53,579 nucleotides of DNA from Candidatus Levyibacteriota bacterium (GCA_050255815.1 JBLMVJ010000020.1:1-53579); one strand, 5' to 3'. Shown: positions 8,796 through 40,767, counted from the first letter of the stretch. Program-made: numbers and translations. Notes: a model not told the origin generated them from the sequence alone.

Positions 8796-9812
8796 CTATC
8801 TGGCTATAGCGTCCACGTAGGCCAGGAAATTATTTTTTCCGGTAAAAACTAAAATAGGCATGAGGTATTGTTGGTTATCATCAGTCCCCAAATAGTACCC
8901 CAGGTCAATACTGGTGATTTCAACGGAGGTACCGGGAGCAGGAGAGGCAATAAAACCTTTTCCGTTTTTCAAGTCCTCGTAGGCTACTTCAGACCTTTTT
9001 AGCGGATAAGTAGAAGAGGTGGTAAGGTCCGGTGTAAAATGATGGAATTGTCCTGAGACTACTTCAGGTCCGGTAGTAGGATTTGCAACTAATAAATAGA
9101 GCGGGGAAGTATTATACGTAGGGTAGTAGATAGCTTTTTCGTCTACCTGGTTTTGATAGAAATCAAGGCGGATAATTTGGCCGCTTGACTGGTCTGCGGG
9201 GGTAAGATTCGTGTTTACTATAGTATAGTAAGAAGTCTTTACGTTTTTCATATCTATATCTGAACGGTCAGCACTCAACGCATCCATTAAATCTGTTGTT
9301 GGTTTCAGGTAATCGGTTCCGGAATAAAGGGTTGAAGAAAAGGTTGGGTTGGTTGCAAAGTCAGACTCAACAGAAAAATTAAAGGATACAATATCATAGG
9401 TTAAAATATTATTTTTTCCCGGCTTACTCCATTTGTGTACCGTTGACGTTACAGACTGAAGGTAATTACCATATCCTGCATTTGCTGCTTTGTTCTTTGC
9501 ATTATTCAATGCCGTAATATTTACCGGATTTTGCTTTAGGGCATATACTTTTATGCGGTCCCCAAAACCCGGATACCCCCCCGTAACCGTATTTAGGGTA
9601 AACTCCGGTACTGCCTCATTTGATTTTGGGAAATCTATAGGCGGAAGCGCTCCAAATTTTTGTTCCGGAGGGGGTGCTTTAGGCGGATTCAAAATAGCCA
9701 TAAGCATGCTTCCGCCTTTGAAGAACATGAATATAATTATGGCTAAAACGCTGGCAGCACCGGCGATTTTTAAAATAATCCTGGTTTCTCTGGTGACTTG
9801 AGCAAGCGACAT
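8796..9812 (-). CDS. Hypothetical membrane-anchored extracytoplasmic protein
   Basis: Single N-terminal TM helix (ILKIAGAASVLAIIIFMFF), then a Pro-rich linker and a beta-rich domain. Start taken at the internal ATG (MSLAQV) to avoid overlapping gltX. Confidence 0.6.
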   Translation of the reverse strand: MSLAQVTRETRIILKIAGAASVLAIIIFMFFKGGSMLMAILNPPKAPPPEQKFGALPPIDFPKSNEAVPEFTLNTVTGGYPGFGDRIKVYALKQNPVNITALNNAKNKAANAGYGNYLQSVTSTVHKWSKPGKNNILTYDIVSFNFSVESDFATNPTFSSTLYSGTDYLKPTTDLMDALSADRSDIDMKNVKTSYYTIVNTNLTPADQSSGQIIRLDFYQNQVDEKAIYYPTYNTSPLYLLVANPTTGPEVVSGQFHHFTPDLTTSSTYPLKRSEVAYEDLKNGKGFIASPAPGTSVEITSIDLGYYLGTDDNQQYLMPILVFTGKNNFLAYVDAIAR

Positions 9813-9880
9813 ATTCTTATATCGGAGTTTTCCGATCTTACATTGAGTATATTGTAGAGCCTGTGATAAAATCAAGCTGT

Positions 9881-11098
9881 ATGAATAGTCAAGTACGTGT
9901 ACGTTTTGCGCCGAGTCCTACCGGAACCCTTCATGTAGGCGGTGTCAGGACCGCACTTTTTAATTATTTTCTTGCCAGGTCTACCGGTGGTGTCTTTATT
10001 CTCAGAATTGAAGATACAGACCAGGCAAGAAAGGTAGAAGGAGCAGTGGAGCAAATCCGGGAATCACTGCAGTGGCTGGGGGCTGACTGGGATGAATTAG
10101 TGACCCAATCCCAACGCCTTGATGTATACAAAAAATATGCTGATCAGCTGGTTTCAGAAGGAAAAGCAAAAGTAGATGAAGGGGCAATCAGATTTATTAC
10201 TCCTAAAGAAGGAATAACCGGCTGGACAGATGCAGTTGGGAATAAAGAAATTTCTTTTGCAAATAAAGATATTGAGGATTTTATTATTTTAAAAAAAGAC
10301 GGTTATCCTACTTACCACCTTGCAAATGTAGTAGACGACCACCTGATGGAAATTTCCCATGTAATCCGTGGAGAAGATTGGATTCCTTCAGCACCAAAGC
10401 ACCTTATGTTGTATAAGTCATTTGGCTGGAACCCGCCCATTTTTGCCCATGTCCCAAATATTTTAGGTACTGACGGGAAAAAGCTTTCAAAACGCAGGGG
10501 AGCAAAATCAGTCCTTGATTTTAAGCATGAAGGTTATTTGTCGGAAGCATTATTGAATTATTTGATGCTTTTAGGATGGTCTCCAAAAGATAATCGGGAA
10601 ATTTTGGGCCGGAATGAATTACAAAAAGAATTTAAGCTGGAAAATGTAAACTCAGCACCTGCAGTCTTTGATGAACGGAAGCTATTGTGGATGAATGGCG
10701 AATATATTAGGGAATTTAAAATTCAAGATTTAAAATTTAAAATTTTAGAATACGACCCACAGATTTCCTCCCTTCATCATTTTAATGAGTATTTGTCGCT
10801 GGCACAGACCAGGATGAAGACGCTTGCAGACTTTCGGGAACTTGCAGAAAATAAAAAAACAGAACTTTCTGAGAAACAAAAAGAACTGGCAAAAAATCTT
10901 ATTGAAGCATTTCAAAGTATCGCATGGAATAAGGATGAAATTCTAAAAACCGCATTTAATGTCCGGGATAACCTGGGCCTTTCTACAAAAGACTTATACG
11001 TCGTACTGACCGGAAAACCCCAGGGACTGCCGCTTGCAGAGAAGCTGGAAACTGACGGGCAGGAGGAGACAATAATTTTTCTCCAAAAACAAATATGA
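9881..11098 (+). CDS. gltX: Glutamate--tRNA ligase (short, 405 aa)
   Basis: VRVRFAPSPTGTLHVGGVRTALFNY (HIGH region), ILRIEDTDQAR, and KLSKRRG (KMSKS equivalent). Confidence 0.9.
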   Translation: MNSQVRVRFAPSPTGTLHVGGVRTALFNYFLARSTGGVFILRIEDTDQARKVEGAVEQIRESLQWLGADWDELVTQSQRLDVYKKYADQLVSEGKAKVDEGAIRFITPKEGITGWTDAVGNKEISFANKDIEDFIILKKDGYPTYHLANVVDDHLMEISHVIRGEDWIPSAPKHLMLYKSFGWNPPIFAHVPNILGTDGKKLSKRRGAKSVLDFKHEGYLSEALLNYLMLLGWSPKDNREILGRNELQKEFKLENVNSAPAVFDERKLLWMNGEYIREFKIQDLKFKILEYDPQISSLHHFNEYLSLAQTRMKTLADFRELAENKKTELSEKQKELAKNLIEAFQSIAWNKDEILKTAFNVRDNLGLSTKDLYVVLTGKPQGLPLAEKLETDGQEETIIFLQKQI

Positions 11099-14159: not shown

Positions 14160-14348
14160 TTACATTCCAGGAGCCGCCGGAGGTGTTCCTCCTCCCATAT
14201 CAGTTCCTCCTGTTGAAGGTTCCGGTGTTGGGGCTGCTGGTTCCGGAGCTGCAGGCATTCCTCCGCCCATGTCTGGTACTGGAGCTGCTGGTTCCGGAGC
14301 CGGAGGAGTCTGTGCAGGCATTCCGCCTTGGTTTTGTGTATCATCCAT
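14160..14348 (-). CDS. Pro/Ala/Gly-rich repetitive 62-aa protein
   Basis: GGAGGTG sits 10 nt upstream of the ATG and a terminator lies 24 nt after the stop. Internal repeats GGMPAxxPxAPEPAAP and DMGGG. Confidence 0.5.
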   Translation of the reverse strand: MDDTQNQGGMPAQTPPAPEPAAPVPDMGGGMPAAPEPAAPTPEPSTGGTDMGGGTPPAAPGM

Positions 14349-14429
14349 TATTCATATTCACCTCCCCTATTTACTTACCATTTCATTGTTTCATAATTTA
14401 AAACACTACGCAAGACAACTGGGTAACTC

Positions 14430-16130
14430 TTACTTTTTATCAAGCTTTGATTGAATCGCATCTATAACTTGTTGGGTGGTTAGCGTAGGAAACAACTTAT
14501 AAGATTTTTGTGCTTCGCCCAGGGCCTCCGGAAGCTTGCCCATATTGTAATGTGCCAGGGAAAGTGTGATCCATAATTTTGCTGATAAAGGATATTTTTG
14601 TATTGCCTTTCTTATAAAAGTTTCCGCTTCCTTATTTTTACTCGAGAGTACTAGGACCCGGGCAATATTTTCGTACATAGGAAGACGGTCATTTAAGGAT
14701 AATGCCTTTTTATAATATAAGTAAGCATTATGGTAATTCTCATTATGTTCCTCAATAGTGCCCAGGTTGTTTACCGCTATCCATAAATGAGGTTCTATAT
14801 TTAAAGCTTGTCTAAAATGGACTTGGGCCTGCATAATATTGCCCGCTTTAAAATATTCGTCTCCTAAATTATTCTCCAAAAGCGCGCTTTGTGAAGTTTT
14901 TGCATCAGCTGCGTAGAGAGTAAAAGCGTCTTTCCATTGGGTATTTCTAACCATAGTCCTGAGCGAGAATATGAAGCATAGAAATATAAGGCTCAAAAAA
15001 ATAACCTGTTCTTTTTTAGGAAAGCGTTGAATTCCCAGGTTTATCATGATTCCTATTAAACCTATAATTCCAACTGATGAGAAATAAAACCATCTGGTAG
15101 CAACAGTTGCATCAAGCGGGATGATTTGCAGATGCGGAATAATCCCTAATAAAAACCAAAACAAGAAAAAAATGAATAATTTAGATTCTGTAAAGTGCTT
15201 CTTTACCAAACGGATATAGAAAAGACAAAGAGACCCTAAAAATATCACAGTAAGGAAAAAAGGAAGCAAGAATGTTCCCAAATTAAAAGTATGTATGACC
15301 CATTGTTGAGTAAAGCCTAAATTGTCCGGATAGAAAAACGTTTTTATATAGTAGAAAAAGATAATAGGTATATGGAGGAGCCTATTGAAAAACGGGACTT
15401 TTGCAAAAGGAGGCGGTTCAATCCAAAATATATTCGTACTTTGGGAAGAAAACCTTAACATTATATATAAGAAAACTGCACCAAAAATAGAGAAAAGTAT
15501 TTTTTTTATATTTTTCTTTTTAAAGAAAAGGAAATTGCAGAAAGCGATAATGGAAAAAAGGATGCCAGTTTCTTTTGATAACAGGGAAAGCAAAAGCAGG
15601 ATAGAAAGGAGCAGGTATTGTTTACCGGAAAGATTTTTCTTCAAGCTTAGTAATAATGCGGACATACCAAAGAAGAAAAAAAGAACGTCCTGAATATTTG
15701 AGACGTAAACAGCGTTCTCCTGGTTTATGGGGTGGATTAAAAAAAGTATTGCAAGAAGGTATGATAAATTTTTCTTCAGGAATTTTGAAAATAATATATA
15801 AACAAGGAAGGCATTTATGGTAACCAGAATGATTTGGATAAAATGGAAAATAAAGGGGTTTGGGCCAAAAAACAAACGAAGTGAATAGATATAAAAAAGC
15901 ATAAGGGGTTTATAATAGCCGGAAAGAAGGGGACCGGCTTCTAAAACCTGATGATGGTAGAAAAAAACTTTGAAGAGGTCAAAAAAAGAATTAACCAGGG
16001 CATAATTATAAACCTGATCCATATCATCACCTACAAAACCGGATGAAAAAGTTTGCAGATAGACGAAGCAAGAAATAAGAAGCAGAATAAGAAAAAACCT
16101 TTTGCTCTCTATTTTTTTAAAGAGGCTCAT
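14430..16130 (-). CDS. TMTC/PMT-like GT-C membrane glycosyltransferase with C-terminal TPR repeats
   Basis: 566 aa. N-terminal FSSGFVGDDMDQV motif, then about 11 TM helices. The C-terminal 170 aa carry TPR-like repeats (AQVHFRQALNIEP, AYLYYKKALSLN, ALGEAQKSYKLFP). Confidence 0.7.
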   Translation of the reverse strand: MSLFKKIESKRFFLILLLISCFVYLQTFSSGFVGDDMDQVYNYALVNSFFDLFKVFFYHHQVLEAGPLLSGYYKPLMLFYIYSLRLFFGPNPFIFHFIQIILVTINAFLVYILFSKFLKKNLSYLLAILFLIHPINQENAVYVSNIQDVLFFFFGMSALLLSLKKNLSGKQYLLLSILLLLSLLSKETGILFSIIAFCNFLFFKKKNIKKILFSIFGAVFLYIMLRFSSQSTNIFWIEPPPFAKVPFFNRLLHIPIIFFYYIKTFFYPDNLGFTQQWVIHTFNLGTFLLPFFLTVIFLGSLCLFYIRLVKKHFTESKLFIFFLFWFLLGIIPHLQIIPLDATVATRWFYFSSVGIIGLIGIMINLGIQRFPKKEQVIFLSLIFLCFIFSLRTMVRNTQWKDAFTLYAADAKTSQSALLENNLGDEYFKAGNIMQAQVHFRQALNIEPHLWIAVNNLGTIEEHNENYHNAYLYYKKALSLNDRLPMYENIARVLVLSSKNKEAETFIRKAIQKYPLSAKLWITLSLAHYNMGKLPEALGEAQKSYKLFPTLTTQQVIDAIQSKLDKK

Positions 16131-16586: not shown

Positions 16587-17573
16587 ATGTTAAAATTCCT
16601 GTCCAAATGGAAGGTTACCCTTCTTTTTAGCTGCTTCCTTTTAGGTGGAATAAGCTTATGTATAACCATTCACCCCTTCCAGATAAACGCTGCCGCTTCT
16701 CATGTTGTTATCTCTGAGGTACAAATAAGCGGGAAAACTGCTACTGATGAATTTATAGAAATATATAATCCAACTTCTTCTTCAATAAATTTAGGCGGCT
16801 GGAAGCTCAAGCACGCTATCCCAAGCGGAACCGTATCAGGTCTGGTCGCAAATATTTCCGGAACAATTGCTTCCCACGGATATTTCCTGGTTTCTTCACC
16901 TAATTATTCAGGAAACGTACTTCCGGATCAATTATATTCTTCTTCCGGTTATTCAATTACTGACAATAACACGATTCTATTATTTGATAATAATGAGGTG
17001 CTAATTGATAAAGTTGGGATGGGGACTGCAACTGATAAGGAGGGTGAGGGGTCAGCGCCAAATCCTTCAAACGGAATGAGTATAGAGCGGAAATCCTTCT
17101 TTTCTTCTGACTTAGAATCAATGGTGCATGGTGGTATTGATGAATTTTCAGGAAACGGAGAAGATACTGACAATAATGTGGAAGATTTTATTTTAAGAGG
17201 AGCTTCTGAACCTCAAAATAGTCTTTCAATAAAAGAGCCATGGGATCTTACCCCTACGCCTACTTCTACACCTGTTCCTACTTCTACGCCAACACCTATC
17301 CCAACAAGTGCCCCGGTTCCTACTAATACCCCAACTCCTACACCTATCCTGCAAATTCAACCAACAGCAACTACAATACCGCTTCCTACCGTTACGCCAA
17401 CTCCTAAGACGTTTCCTGGTGCGGGACCCACCATAACGCCTATTAATCTACGGATAGTACCGGCAGTAATGAGGCCTCATCTGATATGTATCCCAAAAAC
17501 ATTGGTACTGCGTGTTTTATATCTGGCATTTCCAGTTCAGATTCCTTCCTGCAGGTTAACCTTCATGAGGTGA
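16587..17573 (+). CDS. Secreted lamin-tail-domain (LTD) protein with a Pro/Thr-rich tail
   Basis: Signal/TM N-terminus, VVISEVQISGKTATDEFIEIYNPTSSSINLGGWKL (LTD signature), then a PTPT linker. The atypical C-terminus overlaps the HAD gene by 18 nt. Confidence 0.7.
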   Translation: MLKFLSKWKVTLLFSCFLLGGISLCITIHPFQINAAASHVVISEVQISGKTATDEFIEIYNPTSSSINLGGWKLKHAIPSGTVSGLVANISGTIASHGYFLVSSPNYSGNVLPDQLYSSSGYSITDNNTILLFDNNEVLIDKVGMGTATDKEGEGSAPNPSNGMSIERKSFFSSDLESMVHGGIDEFSGNGEDTDNNVEDFILRGASEPQNSLSIKEPWDLTPTPTSTPVPTSTPTPIPTSAPVPTNTPTPTPILQIQPTATTIPLPTVTPTPKTFPGAGPTITPINLRIVPAVMRPHLICIPKTLVLRVLYLAFPVQIPSCRLTFMR

Positions 17574-19436: not shown

Positions 19437-22400
19437 GTGAAAATTCATTTTAGAAAAAGAAGAAAGGTTTTACTGGGTTTTACTTTAATAGAACTATTAA
19501 TTGCCATAGGTATTCTGTCAGTTCTTCTTTCCATAGTCCTTATTGCGGTAAACCCTTTTGAGCAGATTAATAAAGCAAATGATGTAACCACAAAAGCTTC
19601 CTCAAAAGACCTGGTTTCTGCAGTAAATTATTATTTTACCGCTGAGAAAGTTACTCCCTGGACTAAAGACACCTCCTGTAGGAGTGAGCTAACTACCGGA
19701 AAAGTTTTAACAGATATGCCTTCTTGTGCGCAGGATTTGACAAAAGGCGGAAAATTGCAGGAAAGTGTGATGGCCAGTCCGCAATCTAAAGATATATATG
19801 TTACAGAATGCGCTGATGCGGTAGCGGTTTGTTATCATCCCAAATCCCAGGCATTCCTGAAAGAAGAGGATGCAAAATACACAAAAAATGGGGCATTGCA
19901 GCCCGGGTGCCCCGGAGGGTCAGGGTGTTACTCGTGTACATTTTCAACCAACGATGCACAGGAATGTTTTCAGGCGCTCAACCCAAATGGCTCTCTATCA
20001 CTGGTGGTGTCCCCTACGCCGGGGCAGCCCATTCCCATTCCTGAACGGCACTCAAAAGATGTTTGTTCTTCAGGAGGACCGGGAGAAGCTGCTTGTATGG
20101 CAGATGTAGTTACTAATGCAGCCGGAACTCCGCTCACATCTCTGGCTTTGCCTGCAGGATTTGGTCCGGCACAGATTCATACTGCGTATAACCTTCCCTG
20201 TACTCCCGGAGGAACTTTGCAGTCAGTCTGCGCAACTCCTTCCAGTTTTGGTCCGCGTACCATTGCTATAGTAGACGCTTACCATTCCCCAACTATAGAA
20301 CAGGATTTGGCTGTGTATAATCAGACCTATGGGTTACCACCATGTACTGTTACAAACGGATGCTTATCTATAGTTAACCAAAACGGTACCACTTCCCCTA
20401 TGCCTTCAGTCAATTCACTCTGGGCTTTAGAGATAGCTTTAGATGTCCAGATGGCGCATGCAGTTTGTCAAACGTGCAAAATTTTAGTAGTGGAGACAAA
20501 TTCAAACTATTTGGTTGATTTAAGTGCCGGAGTAAACAGGGCAGCCCTTATGGGTGCACATGCCATATCAAACAGTTATGGGGGAGCAGATTGGGCTGGT
20601 GAAACAGCGTATGATGCAGCATTTGACCACCCAGGTATTTTTATTACTGCCTCTTCAGGAGACTGGGGTTACGGAACATACCATCCTGCCTCTTCTTCCC
20701 ATGTGATTGCGGTGGGCGGAACCAGGCTATCATTGTATCCTGATAATACCTACGCTTCAGAAACCGCTTGGACCGGGGCCGGGAGCGGTTGTTCTCCGTA
20801 CTATACTGCTAATGCATTCCAAACTGCAGTTTCCGGTTGGAGTGCCACCGGTTGTGGAACAAAAAGAGGAGTGGCAGATGTTTCCGCAATTGCAGACCCG
20901 AATACGGGTGTTGCTATCTATAACTCAACTTCTTATAACGGAAAAACCGGATGGTGGATACTGGGGGGCACCAGCGTATCTTCTCCTATCATAAGTGCTG
21001 CTTTAGTTCTTCAGGAAGCAAATCCGGCAAATGCTACTCAATACGTATATGACCATGCCAATAGGTATAGAGATGTAGCCTCCGGTTCAAACGGCTCATG
21101 TGGAGGAAAAACTGCGTGTACGGCTGCCGTAGGATATGACGGGCCTACCGGCCTGGGTTCCCCAAATGTGCTTCCTCCGGCTAACCAAACGCCGGTCCCT
21201 ACCCCTACGCCCATTCCTCCTACTGCCACTCCAACCCCAATTGTGTCCGGCCCAACTCCAACCCCTATTCCATATGCTTTGGATGATACAAAGCTATTAG
21301 GTTCATACGCTGTATTTTTATATACTGATCCTGGAGTCCCCTCTCCCTGGATGATGGATATTTCCTTTAGGCCTGATTTTGGGGGAGTTGTTTCACAGCA
21401 AAAGTATAACCCAACTCTTTATTATGATCCTGACAACGGAGATACTGTTTTGAACGCTGCTTATTTTGCAGATGGCCAGTTTGGGGATTCAGCTAGTGCT
21501 ACCCATATAGCATTTCGTAAACTTACCACAAAACTGGAAGGATTTATGAGCCAACCATACCTATGGAGGTCTTATAGGGAAGGATGCGGAAGAACTGTAT
21601 ACTGGAGGCTTTTTACCAATGGTGATAGAAGTAAAATGGGACCCACTCAGACCGGAACTATTGATTGTTCTACCACCGTTGGTGTTGTGGATCCGCCCCT
21701 TTCCTGGTATACCGTTTTTGATGCAGTGGCCCAAAGACAGAAATACTACGAACCCCTATGGGATGCGGACAACAACGGGGTGATTGATTATAACGACTAT
21801 GTTATCATGGCCTTAAAGACAAAATCCCGGGCCGGAGGCTGGGTACCTCCTGAAATTCCACCATCCCGCTATATTGTTGATGTAAATAATAAGTCATTTA
21901 CTAAAGTTACCAACTACTCTTTAACCGGCAAGACTCCTGTACCTACCTGTGCGTTAGGAGAAACTACCATATGTCCTCAGATGCCAATTTTCTCTGGGTC
22001 TGATGCTATTGGTCAATGCAATATAGGAACTGCAGTTTATGCAGTATTTTCAAGTGCGAATTGCCCTGGTACGGTCTTGACCCCAACGCCCACATCAGTT
22101 CCAACGTCAACATCTACTTTGGCGCCCCCTACGCCTACACCTACTACAGCACCTGTTAGCTGTAATACCCAGCATACGGTAAGCCTCAGCTCATCCGGTC
22201 CAGTTGTTGCTCTTCCCGGTGATACGGTTAATAATACGCTTACCATTATTAGTAATGACACTTCCGGGTGTTCAGCCTCATATACTATAAGTGTAGGAAG
22301 TCCTACCGGATGGACCATAAACGGTATACCCACTAGCTTTACGTTGGCCGGAGGGGCTACAAAAAGTATCCCCTTTACCATTTCTGTTCCAGCATCTGCA

Positions 22401-23366
22401 ATGGCAGATAACTACACCTACCAATTCTGGGTGGCAAAACAAGGCCAAACATCTGTCAATCCAGTTAATGGATATATTCAGGTTGCACAAGTAGGTCCCA
22501 CAAATACACCTACCCCTACTCCTATTTCTTGTACTCAGGGATGGACTAAATCACTAGGGAGCGCCAGCATGAGCGGAAACGGAGGAGATACTATTAACCA
22601 ATCACTAACCATTACTAATAATAATCCTGCCGGTTGTGGATCTGCAGTATTTACGATTAGTTATTCAGAACCATCCGGATGGACAACTTTAAGCCTACCG
22701 CCATCTATTACACTAAGCGGCGGACAAAGCACCACTATCCCTTTTACTATCACTATTTCAACCGGTGCACTGGTTGGCGATTACACTACCCAATACTGGA
22801 TTAATAGTGGGGACACACCTGTAAATGCAACTATTCACGTGCTCAGTACTGGCACGCCTCCTTCAGGACAAATGTTTAGCAATTTTGGCGGAAAATTCTA
22901 CGGGGATTATGCACTTTTTGAATTTTCTTATAACATGAATGGTACCGGAAACTTCCGCCTGGATGTAGCTTCTGATCCATCAGCTCTCAATCAAACTGTA
23001 GGACCTAATCCACTTGCATACTATGGTTTTGCCTTTACTTCAGGAAATGCAATGGATGCCAGCAATACCGCCACACCAACTTCTGTCAGAGGTTTTATTA
23101 AATCCAGTCCGTCAGCTACCTGGTCAGGGTGGAAATGCGGCTCCACCATCTATTACCGTATGTATAATAGTGGAGACCTTAGGATCATGAGTCCTATCCA
23201 ATCAGCAACAGTGGATTGCACAACCGTAGTAAATGTTCTCCCGTGGGACGCATGGTACAAAGCTATTTACTATGGCGTATATGATAGTAGGTATGATGCG
23301 GATAATAATGGAGTGGTGAACTGGACAGATTATTGGATATTAGTCAGAGCTACCAGGTTGAGGTAA
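19437..23366 (+). CDS. Giant type IV pilin-like (prepilin N-terminus) protein fused to a sedolisin-type (peptidase S53) serine protease, NEW3-like domains and dockerin-like loops
   Basis: Leader MKIHFRKRRKVLLG / FTLIELLIAIGILSV (G-F-T-L-I-E class III signal). S53 motifs: LEIALDVQMAH (compare GEASLDVQY), ASSGDWGYG, GGTSVSSPI. Two PTP linkers. Two about 110-aa domains with the PTGWT/PSGWT...IPFTI pattern. DADNNGVIDYNDY and DADNNGVVNWTDY loops. Confidence 0.8.
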   Translation: MKIHFRKRRKVLLGFTLIELLIAIGILSVLLSIVLIAVNPFEQINKANDVTTKASSKDLVSAVNYYFTAEKVTPWTKDTSCRSELTTGKVLTDMPSCAQDLTKGGKLQESVMASPQSKDIYVTECADAVAVCYHPKSQAFLKEEDAKYTKNGALQPGCPGGSGCYSCTFSTNDAQECFQALNPNGSLSLVVSPTPGQPIPIPERHSKDVCSSGGPGEAACMADVVTNAAGTPLTSLALPAGFGPAQIHTAYNLPCTPGGTLQSVCATPSSFGPRTIAIVDAYHSPTIEQDLAVYNQTYGLPPCTVTNGCLSIVNQNGTTSPMPSVNSLWALEIALDVQMAHAVCQTCKILVVETNSNYLVDLSAGVNRAALMGAHAISNSYGGADWAGETAYDAAFDHPGIFITASSGDWGYGTYHPASSSHVIAVGGTRLSLYPDNTYASETAWTGAGSGCSPYYTANAFQTAVSGWSATGCGTKRGVADVSAIADPNTGVAIYNSTSYNGKTGWWILGGTSVSSPIISAALVLQEANPANATQYVYDHANRYRDVASGSNGSCGGKTACTAAVGYDGPTGLGSPNVLPPANQTPVPTPTPIPPTATPTPIVSGPTPTPIPYALDDTKLLGSYAVFLYTDPGVPSPWMMDISFRPDFGGVVSQQKYNPTLYYDPDNGDTVLNAAYFADGQFGDSASATHIAFRKLTTKLEGFMSQPYLWRSYREGCGRTVYWRLFTNGDRSKMGPTQTGTIDCSTTVGVVDPPLSWYTVFDAVAQRQKYYEPLWDADNNGVIDYNDYVIMALKTKSRAGGWVPPEIPPSRYIVDVNNKSFTKVTNYSLTGKTPVPTCALGETTICPQMPIFSGSDAIGQCNIGTAVYAVFSSANCPGTVLTPTPTSVPTSTSTLAPPTPTPTTAPVSCNTQHTVSLSSSGPVVALPGDTVNNTLTIISNDTSGCSASYTISVGSPTGWTINGIPTSFTLAGGATKSIPFTISVPASAMADNYTYQFWVAKQGQTSVNPVNGYIQVAQVGPTNTPTPTPISCTQGWTKSLGSASMSGNGGDTINQSLTITNNNPAGCGSAVFTISYSEPSGWTTLSLPPSITLSGGQSTTIPFTITISTGALVGDYTTQYWINSGDTPVNATIHVLSTGTPPSGQMFSNFGGKFYGDYALFEFSYNMNGTGNFRLDVASDPSALNQTVGPNPLAYYGFAFTSGNAMDASNTATPTSVRGFIKSSPSATWSGWKCGSTIYYRMYNSGDLRIMSPIQSATVDCTTVVNVLPWDAWYKAIYYGVYDSRYDADNNGVVNWTDYWILVRATRLR

Positions 23367-23813
23367 TGTCTTTTTGTTCTTCGCAACAAAAAACGCCACT
23401 CCAATAATTACCATTACCAATATAATTCCTCCGGCTAAAAGGTACATTACCGGTATTCCTCCGTTGGATTTTTTAGTTGCAGTAGTTTCCGGTGCTTTTA
23501 ATGTAAAGTTAAGCAAGCTAGAGGAGGATAGCGTTTTATTTTTGAATTCTGATGCTTCCAGCCCCAATGCTTTTGGTCCCTGGGCAGAAATAGTATAGGT
23601 ACCTGCCGGTACGGTAGCTTCATAATATCCCAGAGGGTCTGTGTTTGCGGCCGCAACAGTTTTTCCTGCTGCGTTTACAAAAAGTACTATTCCCGGGGCA
23701 ACCGGGTTATTTTTTTGGTCTAATATCTTGCCGGCTATCTTCACATCAGCGGCAAAAGCAGGGGAAGTTGCTGAGAGCAAAAAAAGAACAAGGAAAAAAA
23801 GCTTTTTAACCAT
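23340..23813 (-). CDS. Secreted carboxypeptidase-regulatory-like (CarboxypepD_reg) domain protein with a C-terminal TM anchor
   Basis: Signal peptide ...SPAFA/AD. GKILDQKNNPVAPGIVLFVN...TDPLGYYEATVPAGTYTI, then a C-terminal hydrophobic helix plus KNKK. Its 3' end overlaps the giant gene by 27 nt (convergent). Confidence 0.65.
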   Translation of the reverse strand: MVKKLFFLVLFLLSATSPAFAADVKIAGKILDQKNNPVAPGIVLFVNAAGKTVAAANTDPLGYYEATVPAGTYTISAQGPKALGLEASEFKNKTLSSSSLLNFTLKAPETTATKKSNGGIPVMYLLAGGIILVMVIIGVAFFVAKNKKTLPQPGSSD

Positions 23814-23958: not shown

Positions 23959-24390
23959 ATGGGTGCAGTAAATATTGATACGGAACTTTTTGAGCTGATG
24001 TTTCAGGTTTCAAAAAACTTTAAAGAAAAGATGGCCGGTTTTGCCGGAGCTGTAGATATCACCATGCTGCAATTCATGGCACTTTCTTTCATAGAGAAAA
24101 ATAAATCAGTGCATGTAAAGGATGTAGCTGACTATTTTTCCATTGAAATGCCTACCGCCACTTCACTTCTGAATAAATTAGCTAAATTAAAGCTAATTAA
24201 ACGTATGGAAGACAGATCAGATAGAAGGGTTGTAAAAATAACCTTAACTGAAAAAGGAGCAGCTTTGTTAACGGACGCAAAGAAAATTCAAAAAAAGAAT
24301 ATGAAAAAAACGCTTTCTGTCCTTTCTGAAAAACAAAAAGTTGATATGCGGGATATTCTTACTACCATATTGGAAAAATCACATGTTTAA
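23959..24390 (+). CDS. MarR family transcriptional regulator
   Basis: 143 aa. wHTH pattern LQFMALSFIEKNKSVHVKDVADYFSIEMPTATSLLNKLAKLKLIKRMEDRSDRRVVKITLTEKG. Confidence 0.85.
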   Translation: MGAVNIDTELFELMFQVSKNFKEKMAGFAGAVDITMLQFMALSFIEKNKSVHVKDVADYFSIEMPTATSLLNKLAKLKLIKRMEDRSDRRVVKITLTEKGAALLTDAKKIQKKNMKKTLSVLSEKQKVDMRDILTTILEKSHV

Positions 24391-25480
24391 AAAAATTATT
24401 ACCATACGTTTTCTCGTTATAGTTGCCGTAGTGTCCGCAATATTAATTGCCGGCTTAAACATTACCTCTTTTGTGAAACCTGCATCCAGAACCGCAGAAG
24501 TTTCCTTACGCCGCGTTGACTCCAGGATATTGGCAGAGGGAAAAGTTGCCTCACAAAATGAGGCAAATCTTCATTTCCAGACCGGGGGGAAATTAAGCTA
24601 CCTTTCTGTAAAAGAAGGAGATACTGTCTATGCAGGCCAGACTATTGCAAACCTGGACACGTATGCATTACAACGCCAGTTAACTGCGGCTCTTAACACG
24701 TACCGTTCTACGCGGGACACCTTTGATCAGACACAGGATAATTCCCAAAACGGTGTTTTACATGGACAACAAAGGTACAGCCTGGAAGTTCCAAATAAGG
24801 CGGGAATAACCGGAGGGCCGGAGGAAAATATTATCAATGATATGATAAAGCGGATTGTAGACCAGAATCAGGCCACTTTAGATAATTCAGTCATTAACGT
24901 AGAACTGGCTAATTATGCGCTCCAGCTTTCCTCTCTCACATCACCTTTTGATGGAATAGTGGTACATGAAGATGTAAATGTAGCAGGTCAAAATGTTACG
25001 CCGGCTGCTTCATTCCTGATTATAGACCCTAAGGCATTAGTTTTTAGGGCAAATCTGAATGAGCAAGACATTGATTATGTTGACGTAGGAAGTCCTGCAA
25101 CTGTTGTTATAAACGGGGACAATAAAACCTATGCGGGAACGGTTTTGAAGGTATATCCTGAAAAAATATCGCTGCCTTCTGGGCAAAACGTATACAGAGT
25201 GGATATAGCAGTCTCTGATTTTGGGAATATCTATTATGCTCAGGCAGGGTCTGTCCAAATAAAAAGCAACGTAAATATGGAAACATTATTGGTTCCCACA
25301 TGGCTTATCCTTAATAGTCAGAGCATTTGGGTAAAAGAAAAAGATAAAACTATTCTGAAGAAGGTTACGGTTGGAAGAACTCATGGGGACTACACGGAAA
25401 TCCTGGGTGGTCTTTCCACTACAGACCAGGTGGTAACAAACCCTGAAAGTATTGTTGCACAAAAATATAACATCTTATGA
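24383..25480 (+). CDS. HlyD/efflux periplasmic adaptor family protein
   Basis: N-terminal TM helix, biotinyl-lipoyl-like hairpin (VKEGDTVYAGQTIANLD), coiled-coil region and a beta-barrel C-terminus. ATG 24383 overlaps the marR stop. Confidence 0.75.
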   Translation: MFKKIITIRFLVIVAVVSAILIAGLNITSFVKPASRTAEVSLRRVDSRILAEGKVASQNEANLHFQTGGKLSYLSVKEGDTVYAGQTIANLDTYALQRQLTAALNTYRSTRDTFDQTQDNSQNGVLHGQQRYSLEVPNKAGITGGPEENIINDMIKRIVDQNQATLDNSVINVELANYALQLSSLTSPFDGIVVHEDVNVAGQNVTPAASFLIIDPKALVFRANLNEQDIDYVDVGSPATVVINGDNKTYAGTVLKVYPEKISLPSGQNVYRVDIAVSDFGNIYYAQAGSVQIKSNVNMETLLVPTWLILNSQSIWVKEKDKTILKKVTVGRTHGDYTEILGGLSTTDQVVTNPESIVAQKYNIL

Positions 25481-26106
25481 AAAATTTGATTAAAAAAATA
25501 AGAAATCCAAAAGTCTTACGGGTTTTAATTGGGGCATTGATAGTTATTCTTGTTGTAGGAGGGTACCTCTTTTTTGAGAAAACAAACGGGCGGGTGCAGA
25601 TAGATAATTCTTTAGTTCAGTCACCCATTATTAACATAGTTCCCGCTGCTCCCGGACGCCTTATGGAGCTGGATGCGGTAGAAGGGCATATGGTAAAAAC
25701 AGGGGATACACTGGCAGTAGTAGGATCTGAAACTATAAGGTCGCAGACTAATGGTTTGATAATCCTGGCAAATAATCAGGTAGGAGGAACGGTTTCTCCT
25801 ACGCAGCCGCTTATCCAAATTATTGCAACCCAAAATATGCGGATTGCCGGGACCATAGATGAAAATAAGGGACTGAGTGATATAAAAGTAGGACAGCCGG
25901 TTTCTTTTACCGTAGACGCTTTACCCGGTACGTTTTGGGGATATGTAGATGAGATTTCCCCTTCTGCAAAACAAACCCAGGCAGCGTTTTCTATTTCTTC
26001 AGAACGCCCTACCCAGCAATTTGTGGTATATGCCCGTTTTAACAGTGCAGCTTATCCTCTCATTAAAAACGGCATGAGTGTCAAAATGACCGTTTTCACC
26101 AAGTGA
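25477..26106 (+). CDS. Short HlyD-family secretion/adaptor protein (EmrA-like)
   Basis: N-terminal TM helix. VEGHMVKTGDTLAVV lipoyl-like motif and VGQPVSFTVDALPG barrel motif. ATGA overlap with the upstream gene. Confidence 0.7.
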   Translation: MKNLIKKIRNPKVLRVLIGALIVILVVGGYLFFEKTNGRVQIDNSLVQSPIINIVPAAPGRLMELDAVEGHMVKTGDTLAVVGSETIRSQTNGLIILANNQVGGTVSPTQPLIQIIATQNMRIAGTIDENKGLSDIKVGQPVSFTVDALPGTFWGYVDEISPSAKQTQAAFSISSERPTQQFVVYARFNSAAYPLIKNGMSVKMTVFTK

Positions 26107-39042: not shown

Positions 39043-40767
39043 TCAACCAAACGTGAAGGTGAATACTTGAATTCCTGGCGACTGAAACTGAAGCCTTAAC
39101 GTGTGATTTTCTGTTTTCCCATGCAAATCAACTATGTGGTAAAGCCTGTCTGAGTCAACTGTAATAATGCCGTTTTTTACATCTTTTCCGGAAACAGAGG
39201 GAGCTATAACTTTTCCATCCACATATACTTTTACAGTCTGGAGATTTGAATTGCTTCCTGGCCTCAAAATAATATATACATTGCTCGCAATAAAGTTATA
39301 ATTGAGGGAAGCATTTTCCCCAGCAGTTGCAGATTCATTAGATATATTCCATTGTCCTCCATAGCTAAAAGCATTCAACGGGATATTTTCAGAAAGTGCA
39401 AATGTTTCTACTCCGTTAGGAAGCGATCCTGAAGGATAGTAATATTGCATTCGCGCTGATCCCAGGTATGTTTCCGGGGATATTCTCCCAGCTGGGGTTT
39501 GGTCTTGTGTTGGTACAAAAGATGTGTCGACTTTTTTGCCAGTCTCTTTCAGGAGGACCTGGATTGTTTTTTCAGTCTGGTCATATTCCCCTTCCCCAAA
39601 ATGGGTCCTTCTGATATTTCCATTCACATCAATAAGGTACTCAGCCGGCCAGTACTCATTGTTATAATTATTCCATGTAGAATAATTGTTATCCTGGGCA
39701 ACCGGGTATAAGATCTTATACATCTTTATTGCTTGTTCCACATTCGTGGTTTCATGTTCAAATTGAAATTCAGGCGTATGGATTCCAACAACTACAAACC
39801 CCTGGTTTTTGTACTTGTTATACCAGGAAGTAGTAAAGGGAAGGGTCCTAATACAGTTGATGCAGGTGTATGTCCAAAAATCTACCAATACCACTTTCCC
39901 TTTTAAATCCTTGATAGATATTGGTTTATCAGTATTGAGCCAATGTGTTATTCCAAGAAAGTCCGGCGCAGGCGTATCTGCATTAAATAAGTCATTTATA
40001 TTAATATTATTTGTATTTATAGTGTTTCCTTTTAGTAGGGCAAGCTGGTTTTTTACTGCTTTATTATTTTCCAGATTTATAAGATTAATCCCATATGAAG
40101 TGTTAGCAATAAATGATTCAAAATTTGTATCCAGATGAAAGAAAATTCCTATAGCGAAGAACGCCATTATCACGCCAAATCCTTTTTGTACATTTCCTGT
40201 ATTTGACCGGAGACTTGGTATTTTACGAAACAAACCTTCTCCGCCAACCATGATGAGAAACATAGGAATACCAGAGCCTACAGCATAAAAAAGAGTAATC
40301 AGCAGTGTTTCTGTAGTTACCTTGCTGGTTGCAGCAAGTGCAATAACTGAAGCCATAATTGGGCCAACACAGGGGGCCCAGATAATGCCAATAGATAGCC
40401 CTATGAAAACTCCGCCAAAAAATCCAGTATTAGGTTTTGCTGTTGGGGCAAAGGCAGAAAGCTTTGTAAATAGCTGTTCCATAAGGACCTGAAATTTAGG
40501 AACAAACAGGCTAGTTCCAAAAGTGAGAAGGATGATTGCTGCAACTATTCTCAGCGCATCAGCCGGTATTCCTGTGAGTTGTATTATTTTTGTTAGAAAA
40601 AGTGTGAAGAAAGTGAAGCTTACAATAAATCCAACTATTATACCAAGGGGTTTTCTTTTTCCTCTCCCCACTGATCCTGAAAGAACAATAGGAAGTATTG
40701 GCAAAATGCATGGTGATAGTATTGTTACTATTCCTGCAAGAAACGCAAATCCCAAAAGTAAAATCAT
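39043..40767 (-). CDS. DipZ-like thiol:disulfide interchange protein (CcdA/DsbD membrane domain, thioredoxin-like domain and C-terminal beta-sandwich)
   Basis: LSPCILPILPIVL and WAPCVGPI (DsbD-type Cys pairs), DFWTYTCINCIRTLP (CxxC redoxin), and a C-terminal ...LRLQFQSPGIQVFTFTFG. Confidence 0.85.
   Translation of the reverse strand: MILLLGFAFLAGIVTILSPCILPILPIVLSGSVGRGKRKPLGIIVGFIVSFTFFTLFLTKIIQLTGIPADALRIVAAIILLTFGTSLFVPKFQVLMEQLFTKLSAFAPTAKPNTGFFGGVFIGLSIGIIWAPCVGPIMASVIALAATSKVTTETLLITLFYAVGSGIPMFLIMVGGEGLFRKIPSLRSNTGNVQKGFGVIMAFFAIGIFFHLDTNFESFIANTSYGINLINLENNKAVKNQLALLKGNTINTNNININDLFNADTPAPDFLGITHWLNTDKPISIKDLKGKVVLVDFWTYTCINCIRTLPFTTSWYNKYKNQGFVVVGIHTPEFQFEHETTNVEQAIKMYKILYPVAQDNNYSTWNNYNNEYWPAEYLIDVNGNIRRTHFGEGEYDQTEKTIQVLLKETGKKVDTSFVPTQDQTPAGRISPETYLGSARMQYYYPSGSLPNGVETFALSENIPLNAFSYGGQWNISNESATAGENASLNYNFIASNVYIILRPGSNSNLQTVKVYVDGKVIAPSVSGKDVKNGIITVDSDRLYHIVDLHGKTENHTLRLQFQSPGIQVFTFTFG

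What the first reader, a model, noticed from the sequence alone, without database searches (positions are those of the whole stretch)
19437..23366. 1309-aa type IV pilin-like protein fused to a sedolisin protease and adhesion-type modules
Seen in sequence:
- The N-terminus MKIHFRKRRKVLLG|FTLIELLIAIGILSVLLSIVLIAV is a textbook prepilin (class III) signal, with Gly-1, Phe+1 and Glu+5.
- About 225 residues later comes a catalytic domain with the sedolisin (S53) triad context: LEIALDVQMAH (Glu/Asp helix), ASSGDWGYG (oxyanion Asp) and GGTSVSSPI (Ser).
- Then follow a PTPTP linker, an unassigned roughly 190-aa module ending in DADNNGVIDYNDY, two tandem roughly 110-aa beta-sandwich-like repeats (PTGWT.../PSGWT...IPFTI, NEW3/CARDB-like), and a second diverged copy of the 190-aa module ending in DADNNGVVNWTDY. 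The two DADNNG loops are dockerin/EF-hand-like.

Established knowledge: type IV pilins and pseudopilins are normally 100-200 aa. S53 enzymes normally carry their own propeptide rather than a pilin helix.

Inference: this would be a pilus-displayed or pilus-secreted protease-adhesin, for example for attacking a host cell surface in an episymbiotic lifestyle. I do not know of a characterised pilin-protease fusion of this kind.
Basis: partly seen in the sequence, partly recalled or inferred. Interest (0 to 1): 0.8.

Follow-up and report, generated by a model that had tools for sequence, protein, structure and literature searches.

The report
Pilin-fused sedolisin protease in CPR bacteria
A 1309-residue surface protein of an uncultivated ultrasmall (Patescibacteria) bacterium joins a type IV pilin "handle" to an intact S53 (sedolisin-type) protease and a chain of binding modules; it is a real, conserved but rare example of the already described "modular pilin" design, and it suggests pili or pilus machinery that present a protease.

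Summary
The N-terminus passes the Pfam N_methyl and TIGR02532 cut-offs. Its alpha-1 helix is almost identical to ~150-aa pilins that sit in pilB-pilC operons of Levyibacteria. Residues ~198-585 get no direct Pfam or PDB hit, but a family profile matches kumamolisin/sedolisin (E=2e-26, whole mature domain), and Glu332/Asp336/Asp409/Ser513 are invariant in 74/74 relatives. Two NEW3 repeats and two copies of an unassigned module are confirmed; "dockerin" is not.

The fusion is not a chimera. About 16 independent assemblies carry it, and their S53 domains form one clade (40/40 bootstraps) among more than 3,500 protease-only clusters that use ordinary Sec signals. So the pilin module replaced a signal peptide, not a propeptide, which this subfamily lacks anyway. 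Three MAGs with the fusion also encode PilB, PilC and minor pilins elsewhere. A convergent CarboxypepD_reg membrane protein always lies downstream.

It fits the "modular pilin" class (Raynaud 2021), which already includes predicted S74 and M26 peptidase modules. It is therefore a new member of a known kind. Function (pilus-tip display versus membrane-anchored or released protease) remains inferred. Interest is moderate.

The parts
19437..23366 (+). Whole gene: 1309-aa modular pilin-S53 protease-adhesin (GTG start, stop included)
   Evidence: ORF list. Full-length relatives of 56-68% identity.
19437..19550 (+). Class III (prepilin) signal. It has a 14-residue basic leader ending in Gly14, Phe+1, Glu+5 and the hydrophobic alpha-1N. 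Predicted PilD cleavage is between Gly14 and Phe15.
   Evidence: Pfam N_methyl 21.9 bits vs cut-off 21.2. TIGR02532 20.7 bits vs 16.3. Alpha-1 is 54-58% identical to stand-alone Levyibacteria pilins, one of which lies in a pilB-pilC operon.
19437..20027 (+). Pilin module (residues 1-197): alpha-1 helix plus a clade-specific head with 8 invariant Cys
   Evidence: Alignment A2. AF2 model pLDDT 74, pTM 0.62, with helix 17-70 and a 4-strand sheet. Top Foldseek hits are type IV pilins but are not significant (best E=0.086). hhalign to stand-alone pilins aligns alpha-1C only.
20028..21191 (+). S53 (sedolisin/kumamolisin-type) peptidase domain, residues ~198-585, without a prodomain. Catalytic residues are Glu332 (20430-20432), Asp336 (20442-20444), oxyanion Asp409 (20661-20663) and Ser513 (20973-20975).
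   Evidence: Profile vs PDB: kumamolisin E=2.4e-26 over the full mature domain, catalytic residues aligned. These residues are invariant in 74/74 relatives. More than 7,800 and 13,969 homologs found.
21192..21257 (+). Pro/Thr-rich linker (residues 586-607)
   Evidence: Read from the sequence.
21258..21851 (+). Unassigned module A, copy 1 (residues 608-805), ending in an EF-hand-like loop DADNNGVIDYNDY (21762-21800) and ...RAGGWVPPE
   Evidence: Internal repeat with copy 2. Clade alignment A6. No Pfam or PDB assignment. AF2 pLDDT 52, so unreliable.
21852..22091 (+).
   Evidence: Cys positions. The same domain occurs in P0125, L001 and L005.
22149..22496 (+). NEW3/NPCBM_assoc beta-sandwich repeat 1 (residues 905-1020)
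   Evidence: Pfam PF10633, 36.3 bits vs cut-off 24.4. 43% identical to repeat 2.
22518..22850 (+). NEW3/NPCBM_assoc beta-sandwich repeat 2 (residues 1028-1138)
22851..23363 (+). Module A, copy 2 (residues 1139-1309), with loop DADNNGVVNWTDY (23295-23333) and C-terminus ...ILVRATRLR
   Evidence: The same C-terminal module occurs in P0125, L001, L003, L006, L169 and L170.
23340..23813 (-). Conserved convergent partner gene: 157 aa with a Sec signal, a CarboxypepD_reg beta-sandwich and a C-terminal membrane anchor. It overlaps the 3' end of the fusion gene by 27 nt. Its functional link to the fusion is inferred from synteny only.
   Evidence: Pfam PF13620, 34.6 bits vs cut-off 32.3. It is present immediately downstream and convergent in 8/8 fusion loci that have downstream DNA. 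It is absent next to the one non-fusion S53 checked.

Best explanation
The gene encodes a modular type IV pilin of a Levyibacteria-like Patescibacteria (CPR) bacterium.

Shown: a class III signal and alpha-1 helix of the lineage's own pilin type are fused through a Pro/Thr linker to a complete S53 peptidase that looks catalytically competent. A variable chain of beta-sandwich and Ca-loop modules follows. The pilin + S53 core is conserved in a small monophyletic clade, and the tail is shuffled between relatives.

Inferred mechanism: the protein is inserted into the membrane by Sec/SRP. The prepilin peptidase removes the 14-residue leader after Gly14. The alpha-1 helix is then taken up by the PilB/PilC machinery, most plausibly as a low-abundance, tip-located subunit because of its ~1,100-residue cargo. 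The pilus (or a short pseudopilus) would thereby present an active Ser-Glu-Asp protease together with binding modules that set target specificity. The likely use is to bind and cleave surface proteins of a host or neighbour cell, or to scavenge peptides for an organism that cannot make amino acids. The conserved downstream CarboxypepD_reg membrane protein is probably a partner (anchor, receptor for the Ca-loop module, or self-protection).
For: - N_methyl and TIGR02532 score above their cut-offs.
- Gly-1, Phe+1 and Glu+5 are kept in all relatives, with Ala-1 in one.
- The alpha-1 helix is 54-58% identical to ~150-aa stand-alone pilins, one of which lies in a pilB-pilC-...-pilin operon.
- The AF2 model of residues 1-197 (pLDDT 74) has a 54-residue N-terminal helix plus a beta-sheet, and its top Foldseek hits are type IV pilins.
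- S53 identity: profile E=2.4e-26 to kumamolisin over the whole mature domain. The catalytic Glu, Asp, Asp and Ser are invariant in 74/74 relatives, including 10/10 fusion proteins.
- The fusion is conserved in ~16 independent assemblies. It is monophyletic in 40/40 bootstraps. It is the only prepilin-bearing group among 277 family proteins inspected.
- The junction lies exactly where Sec signal peptides end in 118/120 top homologs.
- GC3 equals the genome background, so the gene is native.
- PilB (T2SSE 5e-127), PilC (T2SSF 4e-50) and a minor pilin occur in MAGs that carry the fusion.
- Literature: modular pilins with grafted effector modules are shown experimentally for S. sanguinis PilB and catalogued widely in CPR (PMC8179133). 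T4P are widespread in Patescibacteria, and essential in a Saccharibacterium (PMC11665869). Microgenomates encode PilD (PMC7143001).
Against: - There are no experimental data of any kind.
- No prepilin peptidase was seen. None is in the window, in +-10 kb of six orthologous loci, or in the +-3 kb around pilB in 80 loci.
- The gene is an orphan, never next to pilus genes.
- N_methyl passes its cut-off by only 0.7 bit.
- The head beyond alpha-1 has no significant sequence or fold match to known pilins (Foldseek best E=0.086; hhalign probability 3%).
- A mature subunit of ~1,295 residues exceeds the largest modular pilin cited (860 residues), and passage through the wall is untested.
- Characterised S53 enzymes have acidic pH optima and need a prodomain (PMC2635056, PMC6278154). 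This subfamily has no prodomain, and its activity and pH range are unknown.
Confidence: 0.55

Rival explanations
1. Membrane-anchored surface protease (bindosome-like or pseudopilus-like). The class III signal is cleaved by PilD, but the protein stays anchored in the cytoplasmic membrane by alpha-1, or forms only a very short pseudopilus. Its linkers and modules then reach through the thin CPR envelope. It is never part of a long pilus.
For: - The sequence evidence for the class III signal is the same as for the best explanation.
- The very large cargo and the orphan location away from pilus operons fit this reading.
- There is precedent: Sulfolobus sugar-binding proteins with class III signals whose surface localisation depends on a type IV filament system (PMC4471445).
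- The conserved membrane-anchored CarboxypepD_reg partner could hold the protein at the cell surface.
Against: A full, conserved ~190-aa pilin-like module with 8 invariant Cys is kept, not just the signal. A mere anchor would not need a conserved head. Sequence alone cannot separate this reading from the best explanation.
Confidence: 0.25
2. Pilin module as a secretion carrier with release. The T4P machinery exports the protein in the manner of a T2SS piston, or as a first subunit. The protease then cuts its own Pro/Thr linker and acts as a free, secreted enzyme-adhesin.
For: - T4P-dependent secretion of subtilisin-like proteases is documented in Dichelobacter nodosus (PMC3480457).
- S53 enzymes classically autoprocess an N-terminal segment (PMC2635056).
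- A flexible linker SPTPGQPIPIPER sits exactly at the junction.
Against: No cleavage site can be predicted. In D. nodosus the proteases are not fused to pilin. The non-fusion relatives need no N-terminal carrier at all.
Confidence: 0.12
3. Generic signal anchor. The N-terminus only resembles a prepilin signal and works as an ordinary Sec signal-anchor unrelated to pilus machinery.
For: The N_methyl score is marginal (21.9 vs 21.2). No PilD was found.
Against: - Two independent curated models pass their cut-offs.
- The G|FTL[IV]E motif is conserved across the clade.
- Alpha-1 is almost identical to operon-encoded pilins.
- 118/120 close protease relatives use normal Sec signals, so the substitution is specific.
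- PilB, PilC and pilins are present in the same MAGs.
Confidence: 0.05
4. Artefact or dead gene. The ORF is an assembly chimera of separate pilin and protease genes, or the protease domain is a non-catalytic binding module.
For: One orthologue (L001) has an in-frame TGA. Gene callers truncated some N-termini.
Against: - The same pilin + S53 order appears in ~16 independent assemblies from ENA, NCBI, JGI and Logan.
- The S53 domains are monophyletic.
- GC3 is uniform along the gene.
- All four catalytic residues are invariant.
Confidence: 0.02

Closest known systems
Modular type IV pilins (Streptococcus sanguinis PilB with a vWA module and PilC with a lectin module; the InterPro catalogue of Raynaud et al. 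2021, PMC8179133)
   Same: [quoted passage not shown] The class is frequent in CPR phyla and includes multi-module examples. Peptidase modules (S74, M26) were already predicted.
   Different: - The cargo is an S53 serine-carboxyl endopeptidase-type domain plus 5-6 further modules.
- An N-terminal pilin + S8/S53 architecture is not in their Dataset S1. The only IPR000209 entry there has the N_methyl motif at the C-terminal end.
- The mature size (~1,295 residues) exceeds the 860-residue extreme they cite.
- Nothing has been tested experimentally, and the pilin head fold is only modelled.
Kumamolisin / sedolisin (MEROPS family S53, clan SB)
   Same: There is homology over the whole mature catalytic domain at profile level (E=2.4e-26). 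Ser-Glu-Asp plus the oxyanion Asp align and are invariant. The C-terminal D...GYDGPTGLG region corresponding to the Ca site is retained.
   Different: - There is no Pro-kuma_activ prodomain in this protein or in any of the 120 closest relatives.
- The subfamily is missed by Pfam Peptidase_S8 at its cut-off.
- It has extra conserved Cys pairs.
- The pH optimum and specificity are unknown.
Sulfolobus solfataricus bindosome (sugar-binding proteins with class III signal peptides)
   Same: Functional, non-structural proteins carry a prepilin-type signal and depend on a type IV filament system for surface placement (PMC4471445).
   Different: The bindosome is archaeal, its cargo is solute-binding proteins rather than an enzyme, and no distinct pilin head module is retained.
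Dichelobacter nodosus AprV2/AprV5/BprV (type IV fimbriae-dependent secretion of subtilases)
   Same: Clan SB serine proteases whose export depends on type IV pilus biogenesis (PMC3480457).
   Different: Those are S8 enzymes with ordinary pre-pro sequences. They are not fused to pilin, and the organism is a diderm.
Dockerin type I modules
   Same: The loop DxDxNGxIDxxDY followed by a helix resembles one dockerin F-hand. The only PDB hits of the module profile are dockerins.
   Different: Those hits are not significant (E~0.1). There is a single loop per module instead of the duplicated 22-residue segment. There is no Pfam Dockerin_1 hit. The loop is embedded at the end of a ~170-aa beta-rich module.

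Membership tests
Type IV pilin / class III signal peptide protein | Short basic leader ending in Gly, then Phe(+1), Glu(+5) and ~20 hydrophobic residues; recognised by the N_methyl / TIGR02532 models | tested here: met
   MKIHFRKRRKVLLG|FTLIELLIAIGILSVLLSIVLIAV. PF07963 scores 21.9 bits vs 21.2 (marginal). TIGR02532 scores 20.7 vs 16.3. The motif is conserved in all clade members.
Type IV pilin / class III signal peptide protein | Globular head: alpha-1C packed on an antiparallel beta-sheet (lollipop fold) | tested here: inconclusive
   AF2 model pLDDT 74, pTM 0.62, with helix 17-70, a helical alpha-beta-loop and 4 strands. The top Foldseek hits are pilins (6t8s TM 0.50, prob 0.75) but the best E is 0.086. 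hhalign to stand-alone pilins aligns only alpha-1C, probability 3%.
Type IV pilin / class III signal peptide protein | Assembly machinery (PilB ATPase, PilC platform, other pilins) in the same genome | tested here: met
   Not present in the 53-kb window. In three MAGs that carry the orthologous fusion, a pilB-pilC-minor pilin operon lies on another contig (L100, L106, L110). Met for relatives only; the window's own genome could not be examined.
Type IV pilin / class III signal peptide protein | Prepilin peptidase (PilD, Peptidase_A24) present and cleaving the leader; incorporation into filaments | not testable with these tools
   No A24-like ORF was found in the window, in six orthologous loci, or in 80 pilB loci. 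Cleavage and incorporation need experiments.
Modular pilin (sensu Raynaud et al. 2021) | [quoted passage not shown] | tested here: met
   Pilin module 1-197, linker SPTPGQPIPIP, S53 domain from ~198. Definition taken from PMC8179133.
Sedolisin family S53 | Subtilisin-like catalytic domain homologous to sedolisin/kumamolisin | tested here: met
   Profile A1 vs PDB: kumamolisin E=2.4e-26 (chain residues 2-354 of 364) and sedolisin E=4e-21. Subtilisins match only partially, at E>=7e-6. The single sequence gives no hit.
Sedolisin family S53 | Ser-Glu-Asp triad plus an oxyanion-hole Asp | tested here: met
   Glu332, Asp336, Asp409 and Ser513 align to kumamolisin Glu78, Asp82, Asp164 and Ser278 (kumamolisin numbering from established knowledge). 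They are invariant in 74/74 relatives.
Sedolisin family S53 | N-terminal ~190-aa activation prodomain (Pro-kuma_activ, PF09286) | tested here: not met
   There is no PF09286 hit in this protein or in the precomputed Pfam column of the 120 closest relatives. The match to pro-kumamolisin 1t1e starts at chain residue 186, after the prodomain. The protein is therefore a member of the catalytic family but of an atypical, prodomain-less subfamily.
Sedolisin family S53 | Peptidase activity with an acidic pH optimum | not testable with these tools
   This needs an enzyme assay. The family property is stated in PMC2635056 and PMC6278154.
Dockerin | Tandem duplicated 22-residue Ca-binding F-hand segments; Pfam Dockerin_1 | tested here: not met
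   There is one loop per module, no Dockerin_1 hit, and dockerin chains match only at E=0.09-0.7. EF-hand_1 scores 14.5 bits vs a 25.4 cut-off.
NEW3 / NPCBM_assoc beta-sandwich | Pfam PF10633 above its gathering score | tested here: met
   36.3 bits vs 24.4, two stretches. The repeats are 43% identical.

The most novel reading that the evidence does not exclude
Levyibacteria-like CPR bacteria arm the tip of their type IV pili with an active, prodomain-less S53 protease plus rapidly shuffled binding modules. Together with a dedicated membrane partner (the conserved CarboxypepD_reg protein), this forms a two-gene 'enzymatic harpoon' that binds and cuts the surface layer of a host cell during episymbiotic attachment. 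This would be the first catalytic type IV pilus.
Probability: 0.2. Interest if true: 0.75.

Novelty: new member of a known kind. Interest (0 to 1): 0.5.

Why it matters
Type IV pili are near-universal in Patescibacteria, and they are essential for host finding in the one genetically tractable member. How these ultrasmall, auxotrophic cells breach or feed on their hosts is still open.

A conserved pilin-protease fusion gives a concrete, testable candidate for a pilus (or pilus-machinery-dependent surface structure) that does chemistry rather than only adhesion. It adds a clan SB digestive-type peptidase to the short list of predicted enzyme-bearing modular pilins.

It also exposes an annotation gap. 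A very large S53 subfamily (>3,500 clusters at 50% identity) lacks the canonical prodomain, escapes the Pfam cut-off, and is mostly labelled 'S8/subtilase'. This raises the question of how these enzymes fold and stay latent.

If the gene is instead an ordinary anchored exoprotease, the value is limited to better annotation of CPR surface proteomes.

Tried and rejected
- Direct Pfam, NCBIfam and PDB searches of the protease region found nothing. Only the family profile worked.
- The word-index homolog search with the pilin module returned only alpha-1 matches to small pilins. With module A it returned nothing, although the exhaustive search shows that clade members exist.
- Structure prediction of module A gave pLDDT 52. 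Its Foldseek hits are generic Ig-like sandwiches with no significant match, so I did not interpret them.
- Dockerin assignment was rejected: E~0.1, a single loop, and no Pfam hit.
- hhalign of the pilin head against stand-alone pilins gave no support beyond alpha-1C.
- The search for T4P machinery or other pilins in the window and in +-10 kb of six orthologous loci found none.
- A PilD motif search in all fetched loci, including 80 pilB loci, found none, so PilD presence stays untested.
- Horizontal-transfer origin was rejected on composition: GC3 of every module (0.31-0.38) equals the window background (0.37+-0.04). The raised total GC comes from the Gly/Ala/Pro/Thr-rich composition.
- Independent recurrent fusions were rejected: the fusion forms one clade in 40/40 bootstraps, and no other prepilin N-termini occur among 277 family proteins.
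- PHROGs (phage origin) gave nothing. Rfam and the promoter/terminator scans around the gene showed nothing of note.
- The 'Gammaproteobacteria' record titles of the orthologous MAGs were rejected as placeholder taxonomy.

Full report
**Observation**

The window holds a 3,930-nt ORF at 19437-23366 on the + strand (1309 aa, GTG start), exactly as described. The prepilin motif is the only one in all six frames of the 53.6-kb window.

**N-terminus**

- Pfam N_methyl (21.9 bits vs a 21.2 cut-off, residues 14-35) and NCBIfam TIGR02532 (20.7 vs 16.3) both pass their curated thresholds, the first only marginally.
- A homolog search with residues 1-205 returned only ~150-aa proteins carrying N_methyl. 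Their leader and alpha-1 helix are 54-58% identical to the query.
- One of these, from a Levyibacteriota MAG, lies in a pilB (MshEN+T2SSE)-pilC (T2SSF)-...-pilin operon. The alpha-1 helix is therefore the lineage's own pilin type.
- Residues ~38-197 form a head found only in this clade, with eight invariant cysteines.
- An AlphaFold2 model built on 14 sequences has moderate confidence (pLDDT 74, pTM 0.62). It shows a 54-residue N-terminal helix kinked at Pro40, a helical segment and a four-stranded sheet.
- The best Foldseek matches are type IV pilins: C. difficile PilA1 (TM 0.50 on the target, prob 0.75), then the ETEC type IVb pilin, the S. sanguinis pilus and a Vibrio pseudopilin. None is significant; the best E is 0.086.
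- Profile-profile comparison with the stand-alone pilins aligns only alpha-1C, with 3% probability.
- The class III signal is therefore well supported. The pilin fold of the head is plausible but not shown.

**Protease domain**

- The region nevertheless has thousands of homologs. There were 7,868 below E=1e-3 among the 8,000 candidates scored, variously named subtilase, S8 or S53 by their sources. The exhaustive search found 13,969 representative clusters, 3,568 of them below 1e-30.
- A 22-sequence profile matches kumamolisin at E=2.4e-26 over residues 2-354 of the 364-residue mature enzyme, and sedolisin at ~4e-21. Subtilisins match only partially, at E>=7e-6.
- In that alignment Glu332, Asp336, Asp409 and Ser513 fall on the kumamolisin Glu/Asp/oxyanion-Asp/Ser positions. 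All four are invariant in 74/74 aligned relatives, including the 10 fusion proteins in the alignment.
- This is an S53 catalytic domain. It belongs, however, to a subfamily without the canonical Pro-kuma_activ prodomain. No PF09286 appears in any of the 120 closest relatives, and the match to pro-kumamolisin starts after its prodomain.

**The fusion is real, old and rare**

- Of the 120 closest protease homologs, 118 begin with ordinary Sec-type signal peptides. These are followed directly by the conserved '...R..C.....A.C.A.VVT' segment that, in the window protein, follows the pilin module.
- The pilin module has therefore taken the place of a signal peptide, not of a propeptide.
- The exhaustive search of 1.84 billion representatives with residues 1-620 found only seven clusters matching across both modules: P0121-P0126 and P0085, at 56-68% identity.
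- Five GTDB species genomes (L002-L006) and three JGI metagenome contigs (L169-L171) carry the same fusion, with ORFs of 1,001 to ~1,440 aa where complete.
- A syntenic orthologue sits on a Logan contig (L001).
- All keep the (G/A)|FTL[IV]E motif, the Cys-rich head and the catalytic motifs.
- In a neighbour-joining tree of the catalytic domain alone, the fusion proteins form one clade in 40/40 bootstrap replicates.
- No other prepilin N-terminus occurs among the 277 proteins retrieved, nearly all of them S53 family members.
- GC3 of every module (0.31-0.38) equals the background of the window's genes (0.37 +- 0.04), so there is no compositional sign of recent transfer or chimerism.
- Public sources give these proteins at most the automatic name 'prepilin-type N-terminal cleavage/methylation domain-containing protein'.

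**C-terminal tail**

- After a Pro/Thr linker comes a ~190-aa unassigned module (A1). It ends in an EF-hand-like loop and helix.
- Two NEW3/NPCBM_assoc beta-sandwiches follow (36.3 bits vs a 24.4 cut-off; 43% identical to each other, E=6e-26).
- The tail ends with a second, diverged copy of the module (A2; 37% identity over ~100 aa, E=9e-19).
- Module A has no relatives outside the clade by word-index search. It has no Pfam hit.
- Its only PDB profile matches are dockerins at E~0.1, restricted to the loop.
- Its AF2 model is unreliable (pLDDT 52), and that model's structural matches are generic Ig-like sandwiches with no significant match.
- 'Dockerin' is therefore not supported; 'single Ca-loop at the end of a beta-rich module' is as far as the data go.
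- Across the clade the tail is shuffled: 1-5 NEW3 repeats, FN3-like domains, a CarboxypepD_reg domain, NHL/Vgb-lyase-like beta-propeller repeats, and module A of two subtypes. The pilin + S53 core is constant.
- That is the pattern expected of a constant effector with changing target-binding modules (inference).

**Context and organism**

- The window is ordinary chromosomal DNA: SecF, CysRS, AspRS, GluRS, RecJ, CCA-adding enzyme, MetK, SufB, P-type ATPases, a MarR-HlyD-MFS operon, a PAS histidine kinase and one tRNA-Gln.
- MetK is closest to Patescibacteria/Candidatus Daviesbacteria (64-66%).
- The PilB genes of the fusion-bearing MAGs are 68% identical to a Levyibacteriota PilB and rank among Levyibacteria/Microgenomates.
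- The 'uncultured Gammaproteobacteria' titles of those MAGs are placeholders.
- No pilus machinery or other pilin lies in the window or within +-10 kb of six orthologous loci.
- Three MAGs that carry the fusion do encode a pilB-pilC-minor pilin operon on other contigs. L100 matches the MAG of L005, L106 that of L004, and L110 that of L003. Pfam confirms T2SSE 5e-127, T2SSF 4e-50 and N_methyl.
- A prepilin peptidase was not seen in any fetched DNA, so that criterion remains untested.
- The literature reports PilD in a closed Microgenomates genome and T4P as widespread in the phylum (PMC7143001; PMC11665869).
- One neighbour is conserved: a convergent ~150-170-aa gene immediately downstream (window 23340-23813, overlapping the fusion's 3' end by 27 nt). 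It encodes a Sec signal, one CarboxypepD_reg beta-sandwich and a C-terminal membrane anchor.
- This gene is present in all eight fusion loci that have downstream sequence, while no other flanking gene is shared. It is absent beside the one non-fusion S53 relative examined.

**Mechanism**

Shown:
- a class III signal and pilin-type alpha-1;
- an intact S53 catalytic apparatus;
- a conserved fusion of single origin;
- pilus machinery in the same genomes (for relatives).

Inferred:
- Sec/SRP insertion and PilD cleavage after Gly14;
- uptake of alpha-1 by the PilB/PilC machinery, probably as a rare tip subunit because of the bulky cargo;
- presentation of protease plus binding modules to a target surface or substrate.

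I put this at about 0.55. The rivals are:
- a membrane-anchored, bindosome-like surface enzyme that never enters long pili (0.25; precedent in PMC4471445);
- a carrier-and-release route analogous in outcome to the T4P-dependent subtilase secretion of D. nodosus (0.12; PMC3480457);
- a generic signal anchor (0.05);
- an artefact or dead domain (0.02).

Caveats on activity: characterised sedolisins are acid-active and prodomain-dependent (PMC2635056, PMC6278154). Neither property can be assumed or tested here.

**Comparison with what is known, and novelty**

- The design is that of 'modular pilins', defined experimentally for S. sanguinis PilB and catalogued by Raynaud et al. (2021). Their survey lists more than 1,200 proteins in 264 architectures, many from CPR phyla, and mentions predicted S74 and M26 peptidase modules.
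- Their dataset contains no N-terminal pilin + S8/S53 architecture. The likely reason is that signature databases do not recognise this S53 subfamily.
- A full-text search for sedolisin together with pilin found no description of such a fusion.
- I therefore file it as a new member of a known kind: a new cargo (a clan SB digestive-type peptidase), the largest size so far, and a conserved partner gene, but the same principle.

**Verdict**

Interest is moderate (0.5). The gene is a good, concrete candidate for an enzyme-bearing pilus in episymbiotic bacteria. It is not unprecedented in concept, and it is entirely untested.

Noticed in passing
window 23340-23813 (-); also L001 4302-4811, L003 ~14253-14723, L005 13868-14356 and 14389-14862, L006 13737-14237, L169 ~9119-9325, L170 ~9116-9322: A small convergent gene lies immediately downstream of every pilin-S53 fusion that has downstream DNA (8/8 loci), while no other flank gene is conserved. 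It encodes a Sec signal, a CarboxypepD_reg beta-sandwich and a C-terminal TM anchor. It is duplicated in L005. It may be an anchor, receptor or self-protection partner.
   Followed up: partly
L001 2450-2452: The orthologous fusion gene on Logan contig SRR6837583_356859 has a single in-frame TGA where relatives have Trp/Asn. The frame stays open for ~620 further codons. This is a point mutation, a sequencing error or read-through, and the gene was consequently called as two genes (700 + 551 aa).
   Followed up: partly
L001 287-352; P0001 and P0125 N-termini: Several orthologues have no ATG/GTG/TTG upstream of the GFTLVE motif; in L001 the probable start is ATT or ATA. Gene callers therefore start them inside alpha-1 ('MVVLG...'), which hides the prepilin signal from annotation. 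The window's copy starts with GTG.
   Followed up: partly
L002-L006, L008, L012, L091-L167 (record titles): Many TPA MAGs titled 'uncultured Gammaproteobacteria/Pseudomonadales bacterium' (SRPxxxx_co / binchicken assemblies) group with Levyibacteria/Microgenomates by MetK and PilB similarity. They have ~37-39% GC. Their titles look like placeholder taxonomy.
   Followed up: partly
S53 homologs P0002-P0266: A very large S53 subfamily (>3,500 clusters at 50% identity; Actinomycetota, Chloroflexota, Patescibacteria) lacks the Pro-kuma_activ prodomain. It carries a short two-Cys N-terminal segment instead and is mostly labelled 'S8/subtilase'. The Pfam Peptidase_S8 model misses many members. Giant members exist (P0128 2,535 aa; P0150 2,852 aa).
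   Followed up: partly
L003 and L005 ~9812-9930; P0124 residues 1-40: Upstream of the true leader there is an in-frame degenerate second copy of the motif ('KIAKGFTLLQKGQNGSKLLKKVKTGFTLVELL'). This suggests a small duplication of the leader region or an alternative start.
   Followed up: no
window 48580-49449 (+) and 16587-17570 (+): The window also encodes a staphylococcal-nuclease + lamin-tail-domain fusion and a second LTD protein. These are likely secreted or surface nucleic-acid-scavenging proteins typical of CPR genomes.
   Followed up: no
window 45536-46942 (-) and 44022-45524 (-): A cytochrome b N-terminal-domain protein sits next to a 500-aa ORF with no Pfam hit, and a DsbD/thioredoxin-like protein lies at 39043-40764. 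These are unexpected for a fermentative Patescibacteria genome.
   Followed up: no
window 24341-26106 (+): The HlyD-type membrane-fusion protein of the MarR-HlyD-MFS operon is present as two consecutive ORFs (379 + 209 aa), both hitting HlyD_D23/HlyD_3. They are either tandem paralogues or a split gene.
   Followed up: no
The word-index homolog search did not return the clade's own members for the pilin head or module A, although the exhaustive search shows they exist. Negative results from that tool for short, divergent modules should not be read as absence.
   Followed up: yes
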